Part shown: one piece after another, positions 181-18,259 of the stretch | Layout of the letters: each line of letters starts with the position of its first letter | How positions within the stretch are numbered: position 1 is the first letter of the stretch | Assembly: GCA_037190965.1 (NCBI GenBank) | Contig: JBBCKI010000012.1 | Location: forward strand, 1-18,259 | From: Chthoniobacteraceae bacterium | Lineage (GTDB): Bacteria; Verrucomicrobiota; Verrucomicrobiia; Chthoniobacterales; Chthoniobacteraceae | Length of the DNA: 18,259 nt | Direction of reading: 5' to 3' | Position numbers and translations under genes: made by a program | Notes under the pieces: model-generated | What the model saw: the letters and a program-made list of their open reading frames with translations, nothing else | Told to the model about the DNA's origin: nothing | The model's database searches: none

Positions 181-2181
181 CTACAAATAATAGTCAAAAT
201 CCTGCTCCCTCGACACCCAGCGGCGGACGCGGAAGATATGCACCGGCTTGGTATGGGGATCAAGCGCGACGAAATTGCGTCGCCCATGCCAGAGGTAGCG
301 TTCGTCCCAGAGGAGATCGTGAACCTGGTAGGTATCGCCTTCCAGCCAGCCGAATTCCTCCAGCGGCACGTGGATGAAGGAGTCGTGCCGGTTCCACGGG
401 TCGAGATTCACGACGACGAGAATCAGGTTGTCGCGCGCGGCGGTCATCTTTCCGTAGAAGAGGACGTTCTCGTTTTCCGCCGCGTAGAAGCGGAGGTTGG
501 TGTACTCGTGCAACGCCCGGTTCTCGCGGCGGATGCGATTGAGCCGGGTGATGAACTCTTTGATGTTGCCCGGCGCGTTCCAGTCGCGGCCTTTGAACTG
601 ATACTTTTCGCTGTCGAGGTATTCTTCCTTCCCGTGAACGGCGGCGTTCTCGCAAAGCTCGTAGCCGCTGTAGATTCCATACGCCGAGGAAAGCGTAGCC
701 GCGAGGGCGGCGCGGGTCATGAAGGCGGGGCGCCCCCCCTGCTGGAGAAACTGGGGGAGAATATCCGGGGTGTTCGGCCAGAGGTTGCCCAGAAAATACT
801 GGCTCATCTCCGTCTGGGTCAGCTCGGTGAAGTATTCCGTCAGCTCGTGCTTGGTATTGCGCCAGGTGAAGTAGGTATAGCTTTGGCTGAACCCGGCTTT
901 CGCCAGCGCCTTCATCATTTTCGGGCGGGTGAAGGCTTCGGAGAGGAAGATGGTATCGGGATGTTGCGCGCGGACTTTGCCGATCAGGTATTCCCAGAAG
1001 GCGACCGGCTTGGTGTGCGGGTTGTCGACGCGGAAGATTTTGACGCCGCGCTCCACCCAGAAGAGGACCACGCTGGTAAGCTCATCCCAGAGCTCCCGCC
1101 AGTTCTCGTTCTGGAAATTGAGCGGGTAGACATCCTCGTACTTCTTCGGCGGATTCTCGGCGTACTTGATGGTGCCGTCGGGCCGTTTGAAGAACCACTC
1201 CGGGTGCGCGCCCACGTAGGGGTGATCCGGGGAGCAGTTGATGGCGAAATCGAGCGCAAGCTCCATGCCGCGTTGATGGATTTGGTCCACGAGCCATTCG
1301 AAATCGGCCAGCGTCCCGAGTTCCGGCGCGACATCCTTGTGGCCGCCGCCGTTGGGGCACTTTTGGTGCCGATTGCCGATGGCGTAGGGGACGCCCGGTT
1401 CCCCCGGTTCGGAGGTGACGGAGTTATTCTTCCCCTTCCGGTTGGTGCTCCCGATGGGATGGATCGGCGGGAAATAGATGACGTCGAACCCCATCGCGGC
1501 GGCGTCGTCAATGCGCGGCAGACAGTCGCGGAAAGTGGAGCCACGATCCGGTAGTCCTTCTGCCGAGCGTGGGAAAAACTCGTACCACGCCGTGAACCTC
1601 GCACGCTCCCGGTCGACGAAGACCCGGGGGTAGGGGAGGTATTCCGTGGAAAGGGAGTGATCCGCCCACGTCAGCATGAGCGCCTCCACCTCCGCCCAGT
1701 GCGCGATGGCATCGACTTGCACGGGGGGCGCGGTTTCGATCAGCTTGGCGATTTCGGTCAACCGGGCCTTGTCGCGGGGATCGAGCGCGCGATGCGCCGC
1801 CGCCCGGATGATTGCCGCGCCTTCGAGCGTTTCGCTCCGGAGTTCGGTCAGTCCGCCTTCGAGCTTCTTACGGAACTCATGCTGCCATGAGCGGAACGTG
1901 TCGCCCCAAGCTTCGAGGGTGTATTCGTAGACGGCGTTCTCAAAAAGCGAGCAGGTGCCCTGCCACCGGTCGTTGCCGATGGGAATCATGGGCGTTTCGT
2001 TCCAGGCGATGTCGCCCGCCTTGCGCCATTTCAGCCGCGCGCCGACGAGATCGTGGCCGTCCTTGAAGATATCGGCCTCAACGGTCAGGTCATCACCGAC
2101 GACCCGCTTGATGGGGTGGCGTCCGCAGTCGATGAGCGGTTCCAGGTTTTCGATGACCACGGTCGGCTGTTTTGGAATCAT
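181..2181 (-). CDS. glgE: Alpha-1,4-glucan:maltose-1-phosphate maltosyltransferase (GH13)
   Basis: Motifs WYEFFPRS, YAENPPKKYEDVYP, FRVDNPHTKP (nucleophile D), FLSEAFTRP (acid/base E), NTPDILP, YLDSEKYQ. Start placed at ATG 2181 (MIPKQPTVVIE); the ORF extension to 2466 crosses repeat DNA. Confidence 0.95.
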   Translation of the reverse strand: MIPKQPTVVIENLEPLIDCGRHPIKRVVGDDLTVEADIFKDGHDLVGARLKWRKAGDIAWNETPMIPIGNDRWQGTCSLFENAVYEYTLEAWGDTFRSWQHEFRKKLEGGLTELRSETLEGAAIIRAAAHRALDPRDKARLTEIAKLIETAPPVQVDAIAHWAEVEALMLTWADHSLSTEYLPYPRVFVDRERARFTAWYEFFPRSAEGLPDRGSTFRDCLPRIDDAAAMGFDVIYFPPIHPIGSTNRKGKNNSVTSEPGEPGVPYAIGNRHQKCPNGGGHKDVAPELGTLADFEWLVDQIHQRGMELALDFAINCSPDHPYVGAHPEWFFKRPDGTIKYAENPPKKYEDVYPLNFQNENWRELWDELTSVVLFWVERGVKIFRVDNPHTKPVAFWEYLIGKVRAQHPDTIFLSEAFTRPKMMKALAKAGFSQSYTYFTWRNTKHELTEYFTELTQTEMSQYFLGNLWPNTPDILPQFLQQGGRPAFMTRAALAATLSSAYGIYSGYELCENAAVHGKEEYLDSEKYQFKGRDWNAPGNIKEFITRLNRIRRENRALHEYTNLRFYAAENENVLFYGKMTAARDNLILVVVNLDPWNRHDSFIHVPLEEFGWLEGDTYQVHDLLWDERYLWHGRRNFVALDPHTKPVHIFRVRRWVSREQDFDYYL

Positions 2182-2530: not shown

Positions 2531-2572
2531 AAAAAAATTGCCGCCCGGCGTGCGAAGACGCCGGGCGGCAAT
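2531..2572 (-). terminator. Rho-independent terminator of the ThrC-like/MoaD/NIL operon
   Basis: Perfect 15-bp stem ATTGCCGCCCGGCGT (2537-2551)/ACGCCGGGCGGCAAT (2558-2572), followed on the minus strand by a U-run (A-run 2531-2536); just after the NIL gene stop. Confidence 0.9.
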
Positions 2573-2590
2573 CAAAAGGAGCAAGGGCGT

Positions 2591-2839
2591 TTACCCTTCG
2601 ATGGTGTTGATCTCCACCGGTTCCACCTTCACGCCGGTTTCCTCCAGCCAGGCGATGGCGCGCTTATTCTCTTCGCGCTCGCCTTCCAGTTCCAGCGAGA
2701 CGATCCCGACTTCGTCGGTCACGCTCGCCTGCCGGACGTTGGTGATGACCTGGAATTTGTGGCCCAGCTCGTACACCACGGGGCGGGTGATCAGCCGCGC
2801 GGGAAACATGAGCCAGAGCCGTGTTTTTTCCGTTGCCAT
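2591..2839 (-). CDS. Stand-alone NIL-domain protein (ACT-like)
   Basis: 82 aa; pattern FP..LITRPVVYELGHKFQVITNVRQASV..EVGIVSLELEG....KRAIAWLEETGVKVEP resembles NIL domains (MetN C-terminus, NIL-ferredoxins); no cysteines, so no Fe-S cluster. Confidence 0.82.
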   Translation of the reverse strand: MATEKTRLWLMFPARLITRPVVYELGHKFQVITNVRQASVTDEVGIVSLELEGEREENKRAIAWLEETGVKVEPVEINTIEG

Positions 2840-2858
2840 AAGATTCTAGCCTTCGATT

Positions 2859-3134
2859 CTAGCCACCGGCGATGGCGGGGACGATGGAGACTTCGTCGCC
2901 TTCCTTGAGGGCGCTGGCCTTGTCTTCAAGGAAGCGGATGTCCTCGTCGTTCACGAAGATGTTTACGAAGCGGCGGACGTTGCCGGCCTCGTCGAGCAGG
3001 CGCTCCTGGATGCCGGGATAGCTTTTTTCCAGGTTGCCGATCAGTTCGCCAATGTTGGTGCCTTCGACCTGAACGGTGTCGAGGTCGTAGGTCAACTTGC
3101 GAAGCGGAGTGGGAATACGGACGCTGATAGCCAT
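2859..3134 (-). CDS. MoaD/ThiS/CysO-family ubiquitin-like sulfur carrier protein
   Basis: 91 aa; VRIPTPLRKLT start, RRFVNIFVNDEDIRFL, C-terminal VSIVPAIAGG with free Gly-Gly; CysO-like subtype. Confidence 0.93.
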   Translation of the reverse strand: MAISVRIPTPLRKLTYDLDTVQVEGTNIGELIGNLEKSYPGIQERLLDEAGNVRRFVNIFVNDEDIRFLEDKASALKEGDEVSIVPAIAGG

Positions 3135-3157
3135 GATTTCAATGAGGTTAGGTTATG

Positions 3158-3317
3158 GGAAGTGCTGATTAAAGCAAGCTCGGTCGGAAACTTGTCATTT
3201 TTGGCTCTTTCCGAGTGGATTTGTCCTCGCCTGTCTCAAACAGGCTGCGGGAAATCCCCTCAGAAATAGCTCAAAACTGCCTGCGTTTTCGTCCGGCTCC
3301 ATTTAATCAGCGATTCC
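3158..3317. mobile_element. ~160-bp MITE-like fold-back element, copy 1
   Basis: TIRs GGAAGTGCTGATTAAA ... TTTAATCAGCGATTCC; central CCTGT-CTCAA-ACAGG hairpin; homologous to 12076-12236 and 18105-18259; right flank CTAA. Confidence 0.8.
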
Positions 3318-3338
3318 CTAAGAAGCCGACCGGGGCAA

Positions 3339-4595
3339 TTACTTTGCCGCGAGCTCGGCTCCGATCTTTTCGTCAAATTCGCGAAGGCTTGGGTTGATGA
3401 GGCGGGGTTCGCCGCACTTGCCGACGATCGCCTCCTGGGTTTTGAGGCCGTGGCCGGTGATGCAGAGGACGGCGCTCTCGTCGGCGGGGATTTTGCCCGT
3501 CTCGATGAGTTTCTTGGCGCACGCCACGGTGACGCCGCCGGCGGTTTCCGCAAAGATACCGGCGTACTCGGCGAGGAGCTTGATGCCCTCGACGATCTCT
3601 TCGTCGGTGACATCCTCGGTGCAGCCGCCGGTTTCCTTCATCGCGTGGATGGCGTAGTAGCCGTCCGCCGGGGTGCCGATGGCGAGCGATTTGGCGATGG
3701 TGTCGGGCTTCGGCACCGGCTTGACGATGTCGGTTCCCTTCTTCATCGCGGCCGAGATCGGCGCGCAGCCGGTCGCCTGGGCACCGTAGACGCTGAAGGC
3801 GGTTTCGTCGACGAGGCCGACCTTGACGGCTTCGTTGTACGCTTTCTGGATCTTCGTGAGCAGCGAGCCCGAGGCCATCGGGATGACTGTGTGCCGGGGG
3901 ATCTGCCAGCCGAGTTGCTCGACGATCTCGAAGCCCATCGTCTTGGAGCCTTCCGCGTAGTAGGGGCGGAGGTTCACGTTCACAAAGCCCCAGCCGTACT
4001 TGCCCGCGATCTCCGAGCAAAGCCGGTTGACCTGATCGTAAGCGCCGTGAATGCCGATGACGTTGGTGCCGTAAACGAGAGAGCCGAGCACCTTGCCCTG
4101 CTCCAGGTCGGCGGGGATGAGGACGTAGCTGGTCAACCCGGCGGCGGCCGCGTTGGCGGCGACGGAGTTGGCGAGGTTGCCGGTCGAGGCGCAGGCGACG
4201 ACCTCAAAGCCGAGTTCGCGCGCGCGGCTCAGGGCGACAGAGACCACGCGGTCCTTGAAGGAAAGGGTGGGGTAATTGACCGTGTCGTTCTTGATCCAGA
4301 GCTCCCGGATGCCGAGCTTTTTGGCGAGGCGGTCCGCCTTGACGAGCGGCGTGAAGCCGACCTGCGTGCCGACGCTCGGTTCGCCGTCGATGGGGAGCAA
4401 CTCCCGGTAGCGCCACATTGACTGCGGGCGGGATTCGATCACCTCGCGCGTCAGGACGGACTTGATCGCGTCATAGTCGTAGGCGGCTTCCAGCGGGCCG
4501 AAATCGAAGTCGCACACGTGGATCGCCTTTTTCGGGTAGGGGCGTCCGCATTCACGACACTTCAGGTGCGAAAAGTAAGGGCTCGGTTTGTCCAT
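3339..4595 (-). CDS. Threonine-synthase-like PLP enzyme (fold type II); probable sulfur-carrier-dependent homocysteine-forming enzyme rather than true ThrC
   Basis: PTLSFKDR (PLP lysine), CASTGNLA, YYAEGSKT, PMASGSL, DTIAKSLAIG, GIFAETAGG, ITGHGLKT; N-terminal CRECG..CDFD. Functional reinterpretation is inferred from the SAM riboswitch and adjacent sulfur carrier. Confidence 0.85.
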   Translation of the reverse strand: MDKPSPYFSHLKCRECGRPYPKKAIHVCDFDFGPLEAAYDYDAIKSVLTREVIESRPQSMWRYRELLPIDGEPSVGTQVGFTPLVKADRLAKKLGIRELWIKNDTVNYPTLSFKDRVVSVALSRARELGFEVVACASTGNLANSVAANAAAAGLTSYVLIPADLEQGKVLGSLVYGTNVIGIHGAYDQVNRLCSEIAGKYGWGFVNVNLRPYYAEGSKTMGFEIVEQLGWQIPRHTVIPMASGSLLTKIQKAYNEAVKVGLVDETAFSVYGAQATGCAPISAAMKKGTDIVKPVPKPDTIAKSLAIGTPADGYYAIHAMKETGGCTEDVTDEEIVEGIKLLAEYAGIFAETAGGVTVACAKKLIETGKIPADESAVLCITGHGLKTQEAIVGKCGEPRLINPSLREFDEKIGAELAAK

Positions 4596-4741
4596 AAATT
4601 CTTCAACTCATCTGTTTTGCCCAGATCGAGAGCGCGAGAGGCGCATCCAGTCGATGATTGAAGAATCTGCCCTGAAAAACCTGGCTCTCCGGAATCGCTC
4701 TAAAGAGCTTTGAAAACCTTGGGAGCCATGGGCCTATTCTC

Positions 4742-4872
4742 CTCTCATCTTTCCCAATGCGTTTTAAGCGCACCGAGCTGGATTTGGCACCTGGGCCTTG
4801 CCGCGATTTCTCGCCCTGCAAGCGGTTGCCGTGACTTCAACGGGCCAGTCCCTCAGTCACTCTCGATAAGAG
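4742..4872 (-). ncRNA. SAM-I (S-box) riboswitch aptamer
   Basis: Minus strand: CTCTTATCGAGAG-TGACTGAGGGACTGGCCCGTTGAAGTCAC-GGCAACC...GGTGCCAAATCC...GGGAAAGATGAGAG; P1 (CTCTTATC/GATGAGAG), P2 kink-turn region, GCAACC and GGTGCCAA all match the SAM-I consensus. Confidence 0.96.
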
Positions 4873-4880
4873 TCGCGGTC

Positions 4881-4909
4881 ACGGTAGGGGGCTTGAGAGG
4901 TAGCGTCAA
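4881..4909 (-). promoter_or_regulatory. Sigma70-type promoter for the riboswitch operon
   Basis: Minus strand TTGACG (4909-4904), 17-nt spacer, TACCGT (4886-4881); predicted start ~4874, just before aptamer P1; AT-rich stretch upstream. Confidence 0.65.
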
Positions 4910-5201: not shown

Positions 5202-6497
5202 ATGAGACAAATCGGCATTGGCATCGCAGGCTTCGGAACCGTTGGCGCAGGGGTTTACAAACACCTCTCCGGCAATCGCCGACTGTTGTGCGAACGGCTC
5301 GGCCTGGAGTTGGAGGTGCGGAAGATCGCCCTGCGCGATCCCGCCAAGGCGCGCAGCGTCGCGGCTCCCAAGGAGATCGTCACGACCCGGTGGGAGGATC
5401 TGATCGAAGATCCCTCGGTTGAGATCGTGGTGGAACTGATGGGTGGGGTGGAAGAGCCGCTCAAGCTGGTGCTGGCCGCCATCGAAAAGCGCAAGATTGT
5501 CGTCACCGGCAACAAGGCGCTCCTCGCCGAGCATGGGCGCGAGATCTTTGAAGCCGCGGGGCGTCACCGGGTGCCGATTTTCTTCGAAGCGGCGGTCGCC
5601 GGGGGGGTACCGATCATCAAGTCGATTCGCGAGGCATTCGTGGCGAGCCATATCCGCTCCATCCACGGGATCATCAACGGCACGAGCAATTACATCCTGA
5701 CCCGGATGACGCAGTCGGGCCTTGGGTTTGCGGAGGCGCTCAAGGAAGCGCAGGACGCCGGGTTTGCCGAGGCCGACCCGACGCTCGACATCAACGGCTG
5801 GGACGCCGCGCACAAGGCGATCATTCTCGCCTCGCTGGCCTACGGGTTCTGGGTCGGGACGTGCGAAATCCAGGTGGAGGGGATCGAAGGGGTCACCGCC
5901 ACGGACATCAAATTTGCGGGGCAACTCGGGTACAAGATCAAGCTGCTGGCGGTCATCAAGGCCGACGAGCAGGGCCGTGTGGAAGTGCGCGTGCATCCGA
6001 CGCTGGTTCCCGACACGCATGTGCTGGCCTCCGTCAATGGAGTCTTCAACGCGGTGGCGGTCCATGGCGACGTGGTGGGCGAGACGCTTTTTTACGGACG
6101 CGGCGCGGGACAGGACCCGACGGCGAGCGCGGTCATCAGCGATCTGGCGGAAGCCGCCGTCGCGTTGGAGATTCCGCGTGCCCATGTCGGCTTCACGCCG
6201 CATACCCTGTACGGCAATTGCAAACCGGCCTGCGAGATTGTCACCCAGTACTATCTGCGGCTCTCCGTGATCGACAAACCGGGAGTGCTCGCGCAGGTCG
6301 CCAACGTGCTGGCCGATCAGGAGATCGGCATCTCCTCCGTCATCCAGCCCGAGGCGCACGAGGATGAAGCCACGCCGCTGGTCCTGATGCTGCACGACGC
6401 CGCCAAGGGGCGGATGGATGCCGCGCTCGAAGCGCTCTCCAGGCTTGAATGCGTCAAACGCCCGCCGCGCATGATTCGCGTGGAAACTTTCCAATGA
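5202..6497 (+). CDS. hom: Homoserine dehydrogenase with C-terminal ACT domain
   Basis: GIAGFGTVG Rossmann motif, [66 protein letters not shown]-like [12 protein letters not shown] at 5202. Confidence 0.97.
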
Positions 6498-7600
6498 CCT
6501 CTCCGTCTCCATCTCCCATCGCCCCGGTGTTGAATGACCGGGGGCTGATCGCCCGTTACCGCGAGTTTCTTCCCGTTTCGGAATCGACGCCCGTTATTTC
6601 GTTGAACGAAGGCTCCACGCCGCTCATCCATTCGCCAAAACTGAGCGCGCGGGTGGGGCGCGGCAGGAACGTCTTCATCAAGTACGAGGGGTTGAACCCG
6701 ACCGGCTCGTTCAAGGATCGCGGGATGACGGTCGCCATTTCCAAGGCGGTCGAGGAGGGAGCCCGCGCGGTCATCTGCGCCTCCACCGGCAATACTTCCG
6801 CCGCCGCAGCAGCCTACGCCGCGCGCGCCGGGGTCGGCTGCGTGGTTCTGCTGCCTGCGGGAAAGATCGCCCTCGGCAAGCTGGCCCAGGCGTTCATGTA
6901 TGGCGCGAAAGTGGTGGCCATCGAGGGGAACTTCGACGACGCGCTTCAACTCGTCCGGGAGATCGGCGAGACGGAGCCGATCGCCATCGTCAATTCGATC
7001 AATCCGCACCGGCTCGAAGGGCAGAAGACCGCTTCGTTTGAGATTATCGAGGAACTTGGCGACGCGCCGGAACTTCATATTTTGCCCGTGGGCAATGCCG
7101 GGAACATCAGCGCCTACTGGCGCGGTTACCGCGAGTTCCAGCAGCTTGGCCGCGCCACGCGGCTCCCAAGAATGCTCGGTTTCCAAGCCGCTGGGAGCGC
7201 CCCGATTTTTTACGGCAAGGTCGTCGAACATCCCGAGACGGTCGCCACCGCCATCCGGATCGGCAATCCCGCAAGCTGGTCGCTTGCCTCGGAGGCGATC
7301 CGCGATTCGCAGGGGGGCATCGACATCGTTACCGATGACGAAATCCTTGCCGCGCAGGCGTGGCTTGCCGGTAACGAGGGAATTTTTGTGGAACCGGCCA
7401 GCGCCGCCTCCATCGCGGGGCTGCTTAAATCGGTCGAAGGACGAGGCGTTTTTGGGCTGGATGTGATCCCCGAAGGGGCGAACCTCGTCTGCACCGTCAC
7501 CGGCCACGGCCTGAAGGATCCTGACATTGCCAAGGACCGAGTTGGCGGCGTGATCCCCGCCCGGGCCGAAAAGCAGGCCATTCTCGATTTGTTGGGGTAG
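6494..7600 (+). CDS. thrC: Threonine synthase (canonical short type)
   Basis: [71 protein letters not shown] overlap with hom stop. Confidence 0.95.
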
Positions 7601-12075: not shown

Positions 12076-12236
12076 GGAACCGCTGATTAAAGCGAGCTGA
12101 AGCGCAAGCTTGTCATTTTCGGGTCTTTTTGGGCTGCTTTTTCCTCACCTGTCTTCAGACAGGCTGCGGGAAAGCATCTCAAAAATCCCTCGAGACTGCC
12201 TGCGCTTTCGCCTCGCTCCATTTAATCAGCGTTTCC
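12076..12236. mobile_element. 161-bp MITE-like fold-back element, copy 2 (best preserved)
   Basis: TIRs GGAACCGCTGATTAAA / TTTAATCAGCGTTTCC (15/16 complementary), flanked by TTAA on both sides (12072-75, 12237-40); central CCTGTCT-TC-AGACAGG. Confidence 0.85.
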
Positions 12237-12250
12237 TTAACCCTCTGCGT

Positions 12251-18104: not shown

Positions 18105-18259
18105 GGAACCACTGATTGAAGCGAGCCATGCCGTAAGCTTGTCATTTTGGCGTCTTTCCAATCCGATTTTTCCTCACCTGTCTTCAGACAGGCTGCGGAA
18201 AATCGACTTGGAAATCCATCCCAACTGCCTGCGCTTTCGTCATACTCCATTTAATCAGC
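18105..18259. mobile_element. MITE-like fold-back element, copy 3 (right end cut by window edge)
   Basis: CTAA then GGAACCACTGATTGAA...CTTGTCATTTT...CCTCACCTGTCTTCAGACAGGCTGCGG...ACTGCCTGCGCTTTCG...CTCCATTTAATCAGC; colinear with copies 1 and 2. Confidence 0.83.

What the first reader, a model, noticed from the sequence alone, without database searches (positions are those of the whole stretch)
2591..4909. SAM-riboswitch operon: ThrC paralog + sulfur carrier + NIL = candidate homocysteine/methionine route from O-phosphohomoserine
Seen: promoter, SAM-I aptamer, ThrC-fold PLP enzyme, Gly-Gly sulfur carrier, NIL protein and strong terminator as one unit, while a canonical thrC lies across the intergenic region. 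Established: SAM-I controls Met/Cys genes, not threonine; mycobacterial CysM uses thiocarboxylated CysO on O-phosphoserine; from memory, a ThrC-like enzyme plus carrier (MetM/MetO) was reported to make homocysteine from O-phosphohomoserine in Streptomyces. Inference: this enzyme performs gamma-replacement of O-phosphohomoserine with carrier-COSH. I do not know of a characterised PVC version with a dedicated NIL partner; pipelines would likely label it a second thrC.
Basis: partly seen in the sequence, partly recalled or inferred. Interest (0 to 1): 0.85.

Follow-up and report, generated by a model that had tools for sequence, protein, structure and literature searches.

The report
SAM-switched homocysteine operon with NIL partner
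A SAM-sensing RNA switch sits in front of three genes that likely make the methionine precursor homocysteine by a sulfur-carrier route published for Streptomyces in 2024; the undescribed part is a small third protein, likely a methionine sensor, that among the related genomes sampled occurs only where this route occurs.

Summary
The core is very likely the published MetM/MetO route (O-phosphohomoserine + carrier-thiocarboxylate to homocysteine; Hasebe 2024, seen only through three citing papers). The 97%-complete genome shows no MetA, MetX, MetB/Y/Z or DUF39 but has MoeZ, ThrB and MetH. The enzyme has replaced ThrC-conserved active-site residues and groups with carrier-linked enzymes from many phyla. 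All 54 of 81 sampled order genomes carrying it keep a separate thrC. Beyond the published scheme: NIL occurs in 42 of those 54 and 0 of the other 27, sits alone in unrelated neighbourhoods in 8 of 8 unlinked cases fetched, is occasionally fused to the carrier, keeps MetN's methionine-binding Asn, and is missing together with the riboswitch in two 0.9-Mb genomes; it is likely a feedback sensor (untested). No Mec protease was found. The Streptomyces sequence could not be compared directly. This scan noted the same operon before in at least eight other genomes.

The parts
4881..4909 (-). Candidate sigma-70 promoter, TTGACG-N17-TACCGT (weak -10 box)
   Evidence: Read by eye; placed so that transcription would start 1-2 nt before the aptamer; not listed by the consensus scan
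4742..4872 (-). SAM-I (S-box) riboswitch aptamer
   Evidence: RF00162 77.5 bits, model 1-108; only SAM-I match in the genome
4596..4741 (-). Expression platform; predicted translational switch (arm ~4670-4651 pairs either with the 3' strand of P1 or with the region just before the AUG)
   Evidence: Constrained folding; no intrinsic terminator here; not confirmed as a shared pattern in 18 relatives
3339..4595 (-). MetM-type ThrC-fold PLP enzyme, 418 aa (predicted homocysteine synthase)
   Evidence: 36% identical to the genome's ThrC; clade and residue signature
3150..3316 (.). ~165-nt palindromic interspersed repeat in the spacer between the enzyme and carrier genes; probably unrelated to function
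   Evidence: Spacer folds at -78.6 kcal/mol; 14 other matches of 100 nt or more at 76-81% in the genome
2859..3134 (-). MetO-type ubiquitin-like sulfur carrier, 91 aa, ends in Gly-Gly
   Evidence: PF02597, TIGR01687; adjacent in 74 of 80 named loci
2591..2839 (-). Stand-alone NIL-domain protein, 82 aa (predicted methionine sensor)
   Evidence: PF09383; matches the MetN C2 domain, E 5e-5, N34 = N295; co-occurrence
2536..2573 (-). Intrinsic terminator (16-pair stem, T run)
5202..6497 (+). Homoserine dehydrogenase (context; divergent operon)
   Evidence: NF004976 518 bits
6494..7600 (+). Canonical threonine synthase ThrC (context)
   Evidence: TIGR00260 331 bits; keeps T88/S155/R160/Q164/N188 equivalents

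Best explanation
This SAM-riboswitch operon likely makes homocysteine by the MetM/MetO route: the unlinked MoeZ would load sulfur on the carrier's terminal Gly-Gly, the ThrC-fold enzyme would swap the phosphate of O-phosphohomoserine for that sulfur, and the NIL protein is predicted to be a methionine-binding feedback subunit. Shown here: the anatomy, the missing classical genes, the clade and residue signature, and the co-occurrence. Taken from the literature (second-hand): the MetM/MetO chemistry in Streptomyces. Inferred: that this enzyme does the same (about 0.85); that SAM shuts the operon off, probably by hiding the start region (about 0.5 for that mechanism); that homocysteine leaves the carrier without Mec; that a NIL dimer binds L-Met and damps MetM or carrier loading (about 0.5; the target protein is unknown). 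ThrB and Hom supply O-phosphohomoserine, the separate ThrC makes threonine, and MetH methylates homocysteine.
For: Genome (97% complete): PF01053 0 matches over cut-off (4 of the 5 weak hits were checked and are aminotransferases), MetX 0, MetA 0, DUF39/HcyBio 0. Present: MoeZ ThiF+rhodanese, ThrB (25), MetH (23). The genome's only SAM-I match is in front of this operon. Enzyme: 99% SH-aLRT clade of 31 rows apart from 9 ThrC rows in a quick tree; ThrC-invariant T88, S155, R160, Q164 and N188 (1uim numbering) are L, N, Y, S and S/G in 31 of 31. 60% identical to the Microcystis novacekii orthologue; the M. aeruginosa protein is reported 51.6% identical to S. albulus MetM, whose gene has an upstream SAM riboswitch (PMC12172450). 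Nonomuraea has the same SAM-I, enzyme (56%), GG-carrier layout. Carrier adjacent in 74 of 80 named loci; SAM-I in 25 of the 40 of those 80 loci that were scanned; one Terriglobia locus puts the enzyme under SAM-I in front of a PF01053 gene and an alpha/beta hydrolase (likely metY, metX). Order sample: 54 of 54 genomes with the enzyme keep a second thrC-family gene; 32 of 54 have neither a strong PF01053 hit nor MetX, against 2 of 27 without the enzyme. NIL: 42 of 54 against 0 of 27; N34 and A38 align to MetN N295 and A299, which form the L-Met site (PMC6233128); N kept in 18 of 21 and A in 21 of 21.
Against: No activity was measured. The S. albulus MetM sequence and the original paper were not available, so orthology is by a bridge. 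The Microcystis orthologue was reported to act as a threonine synthase/deaminase and to give only an unidentified peak with sulfide. 21 of 54 genomes with the enzyme also carry a strong PF01053 gene and 9 of 54 carry MetX, so the exclusion is partial; kin are not independent. No Mec/JAMM was found (24, 83; the one weak hit is RadC, 86), so release of homocysteine from the carrier is unexplained if it went through a peptide bond as in CysM/CysO (recalled). NIL is missing in 12 of 54 order genomes and from 65 of the 80 named loci (some are cut short), and 3 of 21 NIL proteins lack the Asn. The translational switch was not a shared pattern: with P1 forced, the start region was more paired in 7, less in 8 and equal in 3 of 18 relatives. 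Absences come from a 73-contig draft.
Confidence: 0.82

Rival explanations
1. The core is MetM/MetO, but NIL is not a sensor: it is a structural or catalytic helper (for example it docks the carrier on MoeB/MoeZ, or helps release homocysteine from the carrier) or binds the substrate.
For: NIL is fused behind the carrier in 2 proteins (P0275, P0276). It sits between the carrier and a ThiF/MoeB gene in Nitrospirota and Elusimicrobiota. It has a conserved C-terminal tail (P74, E76, E81) beyond the part that matches MetN (55, 60). A NIL/ferredoxin protein is required in the DUF39 homocysteine route (PMC5764234).
Against: Enzyme + carrier occur without NIL in 12 of 54 order genomes, including two 0.9-Mb genomes that also lack the riboswitch, and near none of the cyanobacterial, planctomycete or actinobacterial loci. 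NIL has no conserved Cys (56). The MetN methionine-site residues are kept.
Confidence: 0.3
2. The enzyme is a second threonine synthase or a Thr synthase/deaminase, and the carrier serves another sulfur pathway (molybdopterin, thiamine, tRNA thiolation).
For: It passes TIGR00260 (277.5 bits, cut-off 167) and databases name it threonine synthase. The Microcystis orthologue was reported to have Thr synthase and deaminase activity.
Against: SAM-I control; a separate thrC is kept in 54 of 54 genomes, even 0.9-Mb ones; five ThrC-invariant residues are replaced; no other homocysteine route was found in the genome; a separate ThiS exists for thiamine. GapMind notes that MetM is often misannotated as threonine synthase.
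Confidence: 0.07
3. The enzyme uses the carrier to make another sulfur product, such as cysteine from O-phosphoserine (CysM/CysO type) or cysteate.
For: Same fold type and the same kind of carrier as mycobacterial CysM/CysO (recalled). A cysteine-synthase-family gene lies upstream in a Nitrospira operon.
Against: The genome has a CysK over cut-off; CysM models score 39.5 bits against 394 and cysteate synthase 68 against 325; the nearest solved structures are threonine synthases, which act on O-phosphohomoserine.
Confidence: 0.05

Closest known systems
MetM/MetO (with MoeZ and Mec) of Streptomyces albulus; Hasebe et al. 2024, AEM 90:e01247-24 (not held; seen through passages of PMC13759103 and its supplement, PMC12172450 and bioRxiv 10.64898/2026.09.15.751699)
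   Same: ThrC homologue followed by a sulfur-carrier gene, upstream SAM riboswitch, MoeZ elsewhere, O-phosphohomoserine available, homocysteine predicted as product.
   Different: Verrucomicrobiota host; third gene NIL, not among the four proteins GapMind lists; carrier ends directly in Gly-Gly and no Mec was found; direct sequence comparison not done.
Canonical threonine synthase ThrC (Thermus 1uim, Aquifex 2zsj; window 6494-7600)
   Same: Fold-type II PLP enzyme, same catalytic Lys, likely the same substrate.
   Different: 34-36% identity, extra N-terminal Cys-containing segment, T88/S155/R160/Q164/N188 replaced, separate clade, never the only thrC-family gene in 54 genomes.
MetN C2 (NIL) regulatory domain of the MetNI transporter (3dhx; PMC6233128)
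   Same: Same Pfam family; N295 and A299 of the L-Met site align with N34 and A38.
   Different: Stand-alone protein with a conserved C-terminal tail, tied to a biosynthetic enzyme rather than an ABC ATPase; Met binding untested.
DUF39 + NIL/ferredoxin + COG2122 homocysteine route (MA1821/MA1822; PMC5764234)
   Same: A NIL domain accompanies a homocysteine-forming sulfur-transfer system.
   Different: Starts from aspartate semialdehyde, uses a persulfide and a ferredoxin; DUF39 not found here; the NIL here has no ferredoxin.
Protein-thiocarboxylate routes of Wolinella (homocysteine; cited in PMC5764234) and mycobacterial CysM/CysO/Mec (cysteine; recalled)
   Same: Sulfur delivered on a ubiquitin-like carrier loaded by a MoeB/MoeZ enzyme.
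   Different: Different PLP enzymes and acceptors (recalled: O-acetylhomoserine with MetY; O-phosphoserine with CysM), and both use a JAMM protease.

Membership tests
MetM/MetO route | ThrC-homologous PLP enzyme with the catalytic Lys | tested here: met
   PALP, TIGR00260; K114 in SFKDR
MetM/MetO route | Direct orthology to S. albulus MetM (A0A059WBP2) | not testable with these tools
   Paper not held and the sequence was not obtained
MetM/MetO route | Same clade as proteins reported to be MetM homologues, apart from ThrC | tested here: met
   One clade (99 SH-aLRT, quick tree) with Microcystis (60%) and Nonomuraea (56%) proteins; M. aeruginosa protein reported 51.6% to MetM
MetM/MetO route | Adjacent sulfur-carrier gene with Gly-Gly | tested here: met
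   3134-2859 ends AIAGG-stop; adjacent in 74 of 80 named loci
MetM/MetO route | Upstream SAM riboswitch (as reported for S. albulus metM) | tested here: met
   RF00162 77.5 bits; report of the S. albulus riboswitch
MetM/MetO route | MoeZ carrier-activating enzyme in the genome | tested here: met
   396-aa ThiF + rhodanese protein on contig C30
MetM/MetO route | Mec (JAMM) hydrolase, listed by GapMind for carrier maturation (accessory step) | tested here: not met
   Only a weak PF14464 hit, which is RadC; motif scan empty. The carrier already ends in Gly-Gly, so trimming would not be needed; hence filed as a variant
MetM/MetO route | Homocysteine formed from O-phosphohomoserine and carrier thiocarboxylate | not testable with these tools
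   Needs an assay
Canonical threonine synthase | ThrC-conserved residues T88, S155, R160, Q164, N188 (their substrate-binding role is recalled; searches found no paper on it) | tested here: not met
   Kept in 9 of 9 ThrC rows, replaced in 31 of 31 clade rows
Cysteate synthase (TIGR03844) | Score over the family cut-off | tested here: not met
   68.4 bits against 324.9
Methionine-binding NIL/C2 domain | N295 and A299 equivalents | tested here: met
   N34 in 18 of 21, A38 in 21 of 21
Methionine-binding NIL/C2 domain | Binds L-Met across a dimer interface | not testable with these tools
   Needs calorimetry or a structure
DUF39 + NIL/ferredoxin route | DUF39 gene and a ferredoxin fused to NIL | tested here: not met
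   PF01837 0 matches; NIL is 82 aa with no Cys

The most novel reading that the evidence does not exclude
The stand-alone NIL protein is a third, dedicated component of the MetM/MetO route: a free methionine-sensing subunit that gives the O-phosphohomoserine branch point its feedback control, kept in trans even after it leaves the operon. The same domain would then have been recruited three times to methionine control (transport, the DUF39 route, this route), and this Mec-free version would be the main methionine route of most Chthoniobacterales, including reduced 0.9-Mb genomes.
Probability: 0.45. Interest if true: 0.62.

Novelty: new variant of a known kind. Interest (0 to 1): 0.42.

Why it matters
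It corrects a common misannotation (a 'second thrC') and explains how two thirds of the sampled Chthoniobacterales, many with no classical met genes, could still make methionine. The enzyme competes with ThrC for one substrate, so the branch needs control; a free NIL sensor would supply it and is cheap to test. A Mec-free three-gene set is a simple system for asking how homocysteine leaves the carrier. The residue signature (R160 to Y, T88 to L, Q164 to S) gives annotators a way to tell the clade from ThrC.

Tried and rejected
Complex prediction (2 x enzyme residues 6-410, carrier, NIL as partner): no answer, score 0.01 against a mark of 0.32; it says nothing for or against binding. Search for enzyme-NIL fusions among 15 longer enzyme homologues: none (one ThiF fusion, two LeuA-dimer fusions). 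Test for a shared translational switch in 21 relatives: 3 had no start found, 18 gave no consistent trend. Terminator-type expression platform: none found by the scan. Naming of cluster members could not be made. Centring a genome search on the Nonomuraea record was not possible, so no Streptomyces sequence was reached; the genome-contig scan covered 2 of 64 parts and returned none among its best 80. The original MetM paper is not held, and its supplements could mention NIL or PVC bacteria. Paper searches linking NIL to MetM/MetO or the operon to Verrucomicrobia found nothing ('NIL' does not occur in the GapMind supplements). The careful tree did not finish; the quick tree is cited. Rejected: second ThrC, cysteate synthase, CysM-type and DUF39-type readings (see rivals and membership). 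The one NIL hit in a genome without the enzyme (G077, 57 bits, 1 of 143 such genomes in the phylum sample) is a NIL/ferredoxin gene between DUF39-like and COG2122-like ORFs (read by eye), so it is not an exception.
Full report
Observation. On the minus strand the window has a SAM-I aptamer at 4872-4742 (77.5 bits), a 418-aa PLP enzyme at 4595-3339, a 91-aa ThiS/MoaD protein at 3134-2859 that ends in Gly-Gly, an 82-aa NIL protein at 2839-2591 and a 16-pair terminator at 2573-2536. A promoter-like TTGACG-N17-TACCGT at 4909-4881 is well placed but weak (read by eye; not listed). Homoserine dehydrogenase and a canonical thrC form the divergent operon. Close homologues are named from Chthoniobacteraceae and other Verrucomicrobiota. 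The genome is 4.2 Mb in 73 contigs, 97% complete.

The genome needs another route to homocysteine. No MetB/MetC/MetY/MetZ-family gene passed the Pfam cut-off (4 of 5 weak hits checked are aminotransferases), and MetX, MetA and DUF39 gave no match, while the controls rang in the expected genomes. ThrB, MetH and a bifunctional homocysteine methyltransferase, CysK and a MoeZ with ThiF and rhodanese domains are present. This operon holds the genome's only SAM-I match. No JAMM/Mec protease was found: the single weak hit is RadC.

The enzyme is not a plain ThrC. It is 36% identical to the genome's ThrC. In a quick tree of 47 rows, 31 selected relatives form one clade (99 SH-aLRT) apart from 9 ThrC rows and 7 more distant paralogues. 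Five positions invariant in the 9 ThrC rows (T88, S155, R160, Q164, N188 in 1uim numbering) are replaced in 31 of 31 clade rows, while the catalytic Lys, N154 and the GFQA glutamine are kept. That these residues bind the substrate phosphate is my recollection; two searches found no paper on it. Cysteate synthase and CysM models score far below cut-off.

The clade travels with the carrier and with SAM control. Among the 80 best named loci from a scan of 2 of 64 parts of the genome collection, a carrier gene lies beside the enzyme in 74; 2 of the 6 without are cut at the contig end. 65 carriers end exactly in Gly-Gly, 8 have a short extension and 1 is cut. SAM-I was found in 25 of the 40 loci scanned, from Verrucomicrobiota, Planctomycetota, Acidobacteriota, Chloroflexota and Actinomycetota, and in none of 9 Nitrospirota loci within 3 kb. 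Nonomuraea has SAM-I, the enzyme (56%) and a Gly-Gly carrier. A Nitrospira locus reads cysteine-synthase family, moeB, enzyme, carrier, NIL, moeB, JAB.

Order-wide test. In 81 Chthoniobacterales-order genomes (own included), 54 carry the enzyme. All 54 keep a second thrC-family gene. 32 of the 54 have neither a strong PF01053 gene (E at most 1e-100) nor MetX, against 2 of the other 27; 21 of 54 do have a PF01053 gene and 9 of 54 have MetX. In a phylum sample, 6 of 7 other genomes with the enzyme lacked PF01053, while 23 of 23 chosen genomes without it had one. Kin are not independent, so no statistic is given.

What is known. Hasebe et al. 2024 described MetM and MetO in Streptomyces. I could not read it. 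GapMind 2026 lists MetO, Mec, MoeZ and MetM with experimental evidence and notes that MetM is often misannotated as threonine synthase (passages and supplement). PMC12172450 (passages) reports that the Microcystis aeruginosa protein is 51.6% identical to MetM, lies next to a metO-like gene, and that S. albulus metM has a SAM riboswitch. The window enzyme is 60% identical to the M. novacekii orthologue. The same paper found threonine synthase and deaminase activity for the Microcystis protein and only an unidentified peak with sulfide, which counts against strict specificity. PMC5764234 (passages) had listed Aquifex and Acidimicrobium as having no known homocysteine route; both lineages appear among the 80 loci. 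So the core is a known route, reached here by a bridge and by architecture rather than by direct comparison.

The NIL protein. It matches the C2 domain of MetN (E 5e-5). Its N34 and A38 align with N295 and A299, which form the L-Met site across the C2 dimer (PMC6233128 passages). N is kept in 18 of 21 and A in 21 of 21. NIL is found in 42 of the 54 order genomes with the enzyme and in 0 of 27 without. In the phylum sample, 6 of 7 hits are in genomes with the enzyme, and the seventh is the NIL/ferredoxin gene of a DUF39-type operon. In 8 genomes where NIL lay away from the enzyme I fetched both places: NIL sat in 8 unrelated neighbourhoods without riboswitch or carrier, while SAM-I and the enzyme stayed together in 8 and the carrier in 7. 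So NIL is kept with the route without being carried along by position. It lies near the enzyme in 15 of the 80 named loci (Verrucomicrobiota 5, Nitrospirota 8, Chloroflexota 1, Elusimicrobiota 1) and is fused behind the carrier in 2 of 11 longer homologues; one of the two may be a read-through. Two single-contig 0.9-Mb genomes (G090, G114) keep enzyme, carrier, a MoeZ-size ThiF gene and thrC but lack both NIL and the riboswitch, as expected if both are regulatory. My searches found no paper tying NIL to MetM/MetO, but the original paper was not seen.

Mechanism. Likely: MoeZ adenylates and sulfurates the carrier's Gly-Gly; the enzyme eliminates phosphate from O-phosphohomoserine and adds the thiocarboxylate at the gamma carbon; homocysteine is released and MetH methylates it. 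How release happens without Mec is open. SAM likely turns the operon off. In the window, forcing P1 lets an arm at about 4670-4651 pair with the bases just before the AUG (-17.6 kcal/mol), whereas without P1 the same arm pairs with the P1 3' strand (-13.8), which suggests translational control; 18 relatives did not show a consistent pattern (7 more paired, 8 less, 3 equal). NIL is predicted to add fast feedback by methionine, at about even odds; its target is unknown.

Verdict. The finding is a variant of a published route: core about 0.85 likely, NIL sensor about 0.45-0.5. Eight earlier notes of this scan reached the same reading on other genomes; they are not independent evidence, and one prompted the fusion search. 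Interest 0.42.

Noticed in passing
window 3150-3316, 12076-12240, 18112-18259; at least 11 other contigs: A ~165-nt palindromic interspersed repeat (MITE- or REP-like), 14 further copies of 100 nt or more at 76-81% identity in the genome; one copy lies inside the operon between the enzyme and carrier genes.
   Followed up: partly
L018, L019, L131 (G114, G090): Two single-contig 0.9-Mb genomes of the order keep enzyme, carrier, MoeZ-like gene and thrC but no PF01053, MetX, NIL or SAM-I. If they belong to the order's nematode endosymbionts (genus Xiphinematobacter, a guess from size, not checked), this route could fill the missing methionine genes reported in PMC7857533 (passages).
   Followed up: partly
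L055:805-6130 and other Nitrospirota loci: Operon with a cysteine-synthase-family gene, two rhodanese-less MoeB genes, enzyme, carrier, NIL and a JAB protease; several Nitrospirota carriers have C-terminal extensions, fitting a trimming role for JAB.
   Followed up: partly
L109:2630-7098: Terriglobia locus: SAM-I, the enzyme, then a PF01053 gene and an alpha/beta hydrolase (likely metY, metX), with no adjacent carrier.
   Followed up: partly
order sample: 10 of the 12 genomes that have the enzyme but no NIL carry a strong PF01053 gene, against 11 of the 42 with NIL; mostly one family, so possibly only kinship.
   Followed up: no
L024-L031: A further thrC-like clade (33-38% to the enzyme) in other Verrucomicrobiota, without carrier or riboswitch and with its own residue pattern; function not examined.
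   Followed up: no
P0218, P0244, P0186: Distant enzyme homologues fused to a LeuA allosteric domain (2) or to a ThiF domain (1).
   Followed up: no
window 181-2181 (-): Downstream gene is an alpha-amylase-family protein (GlgE-like by recall), separated by the terminator and unrelated to the operon.
   Followed up: no
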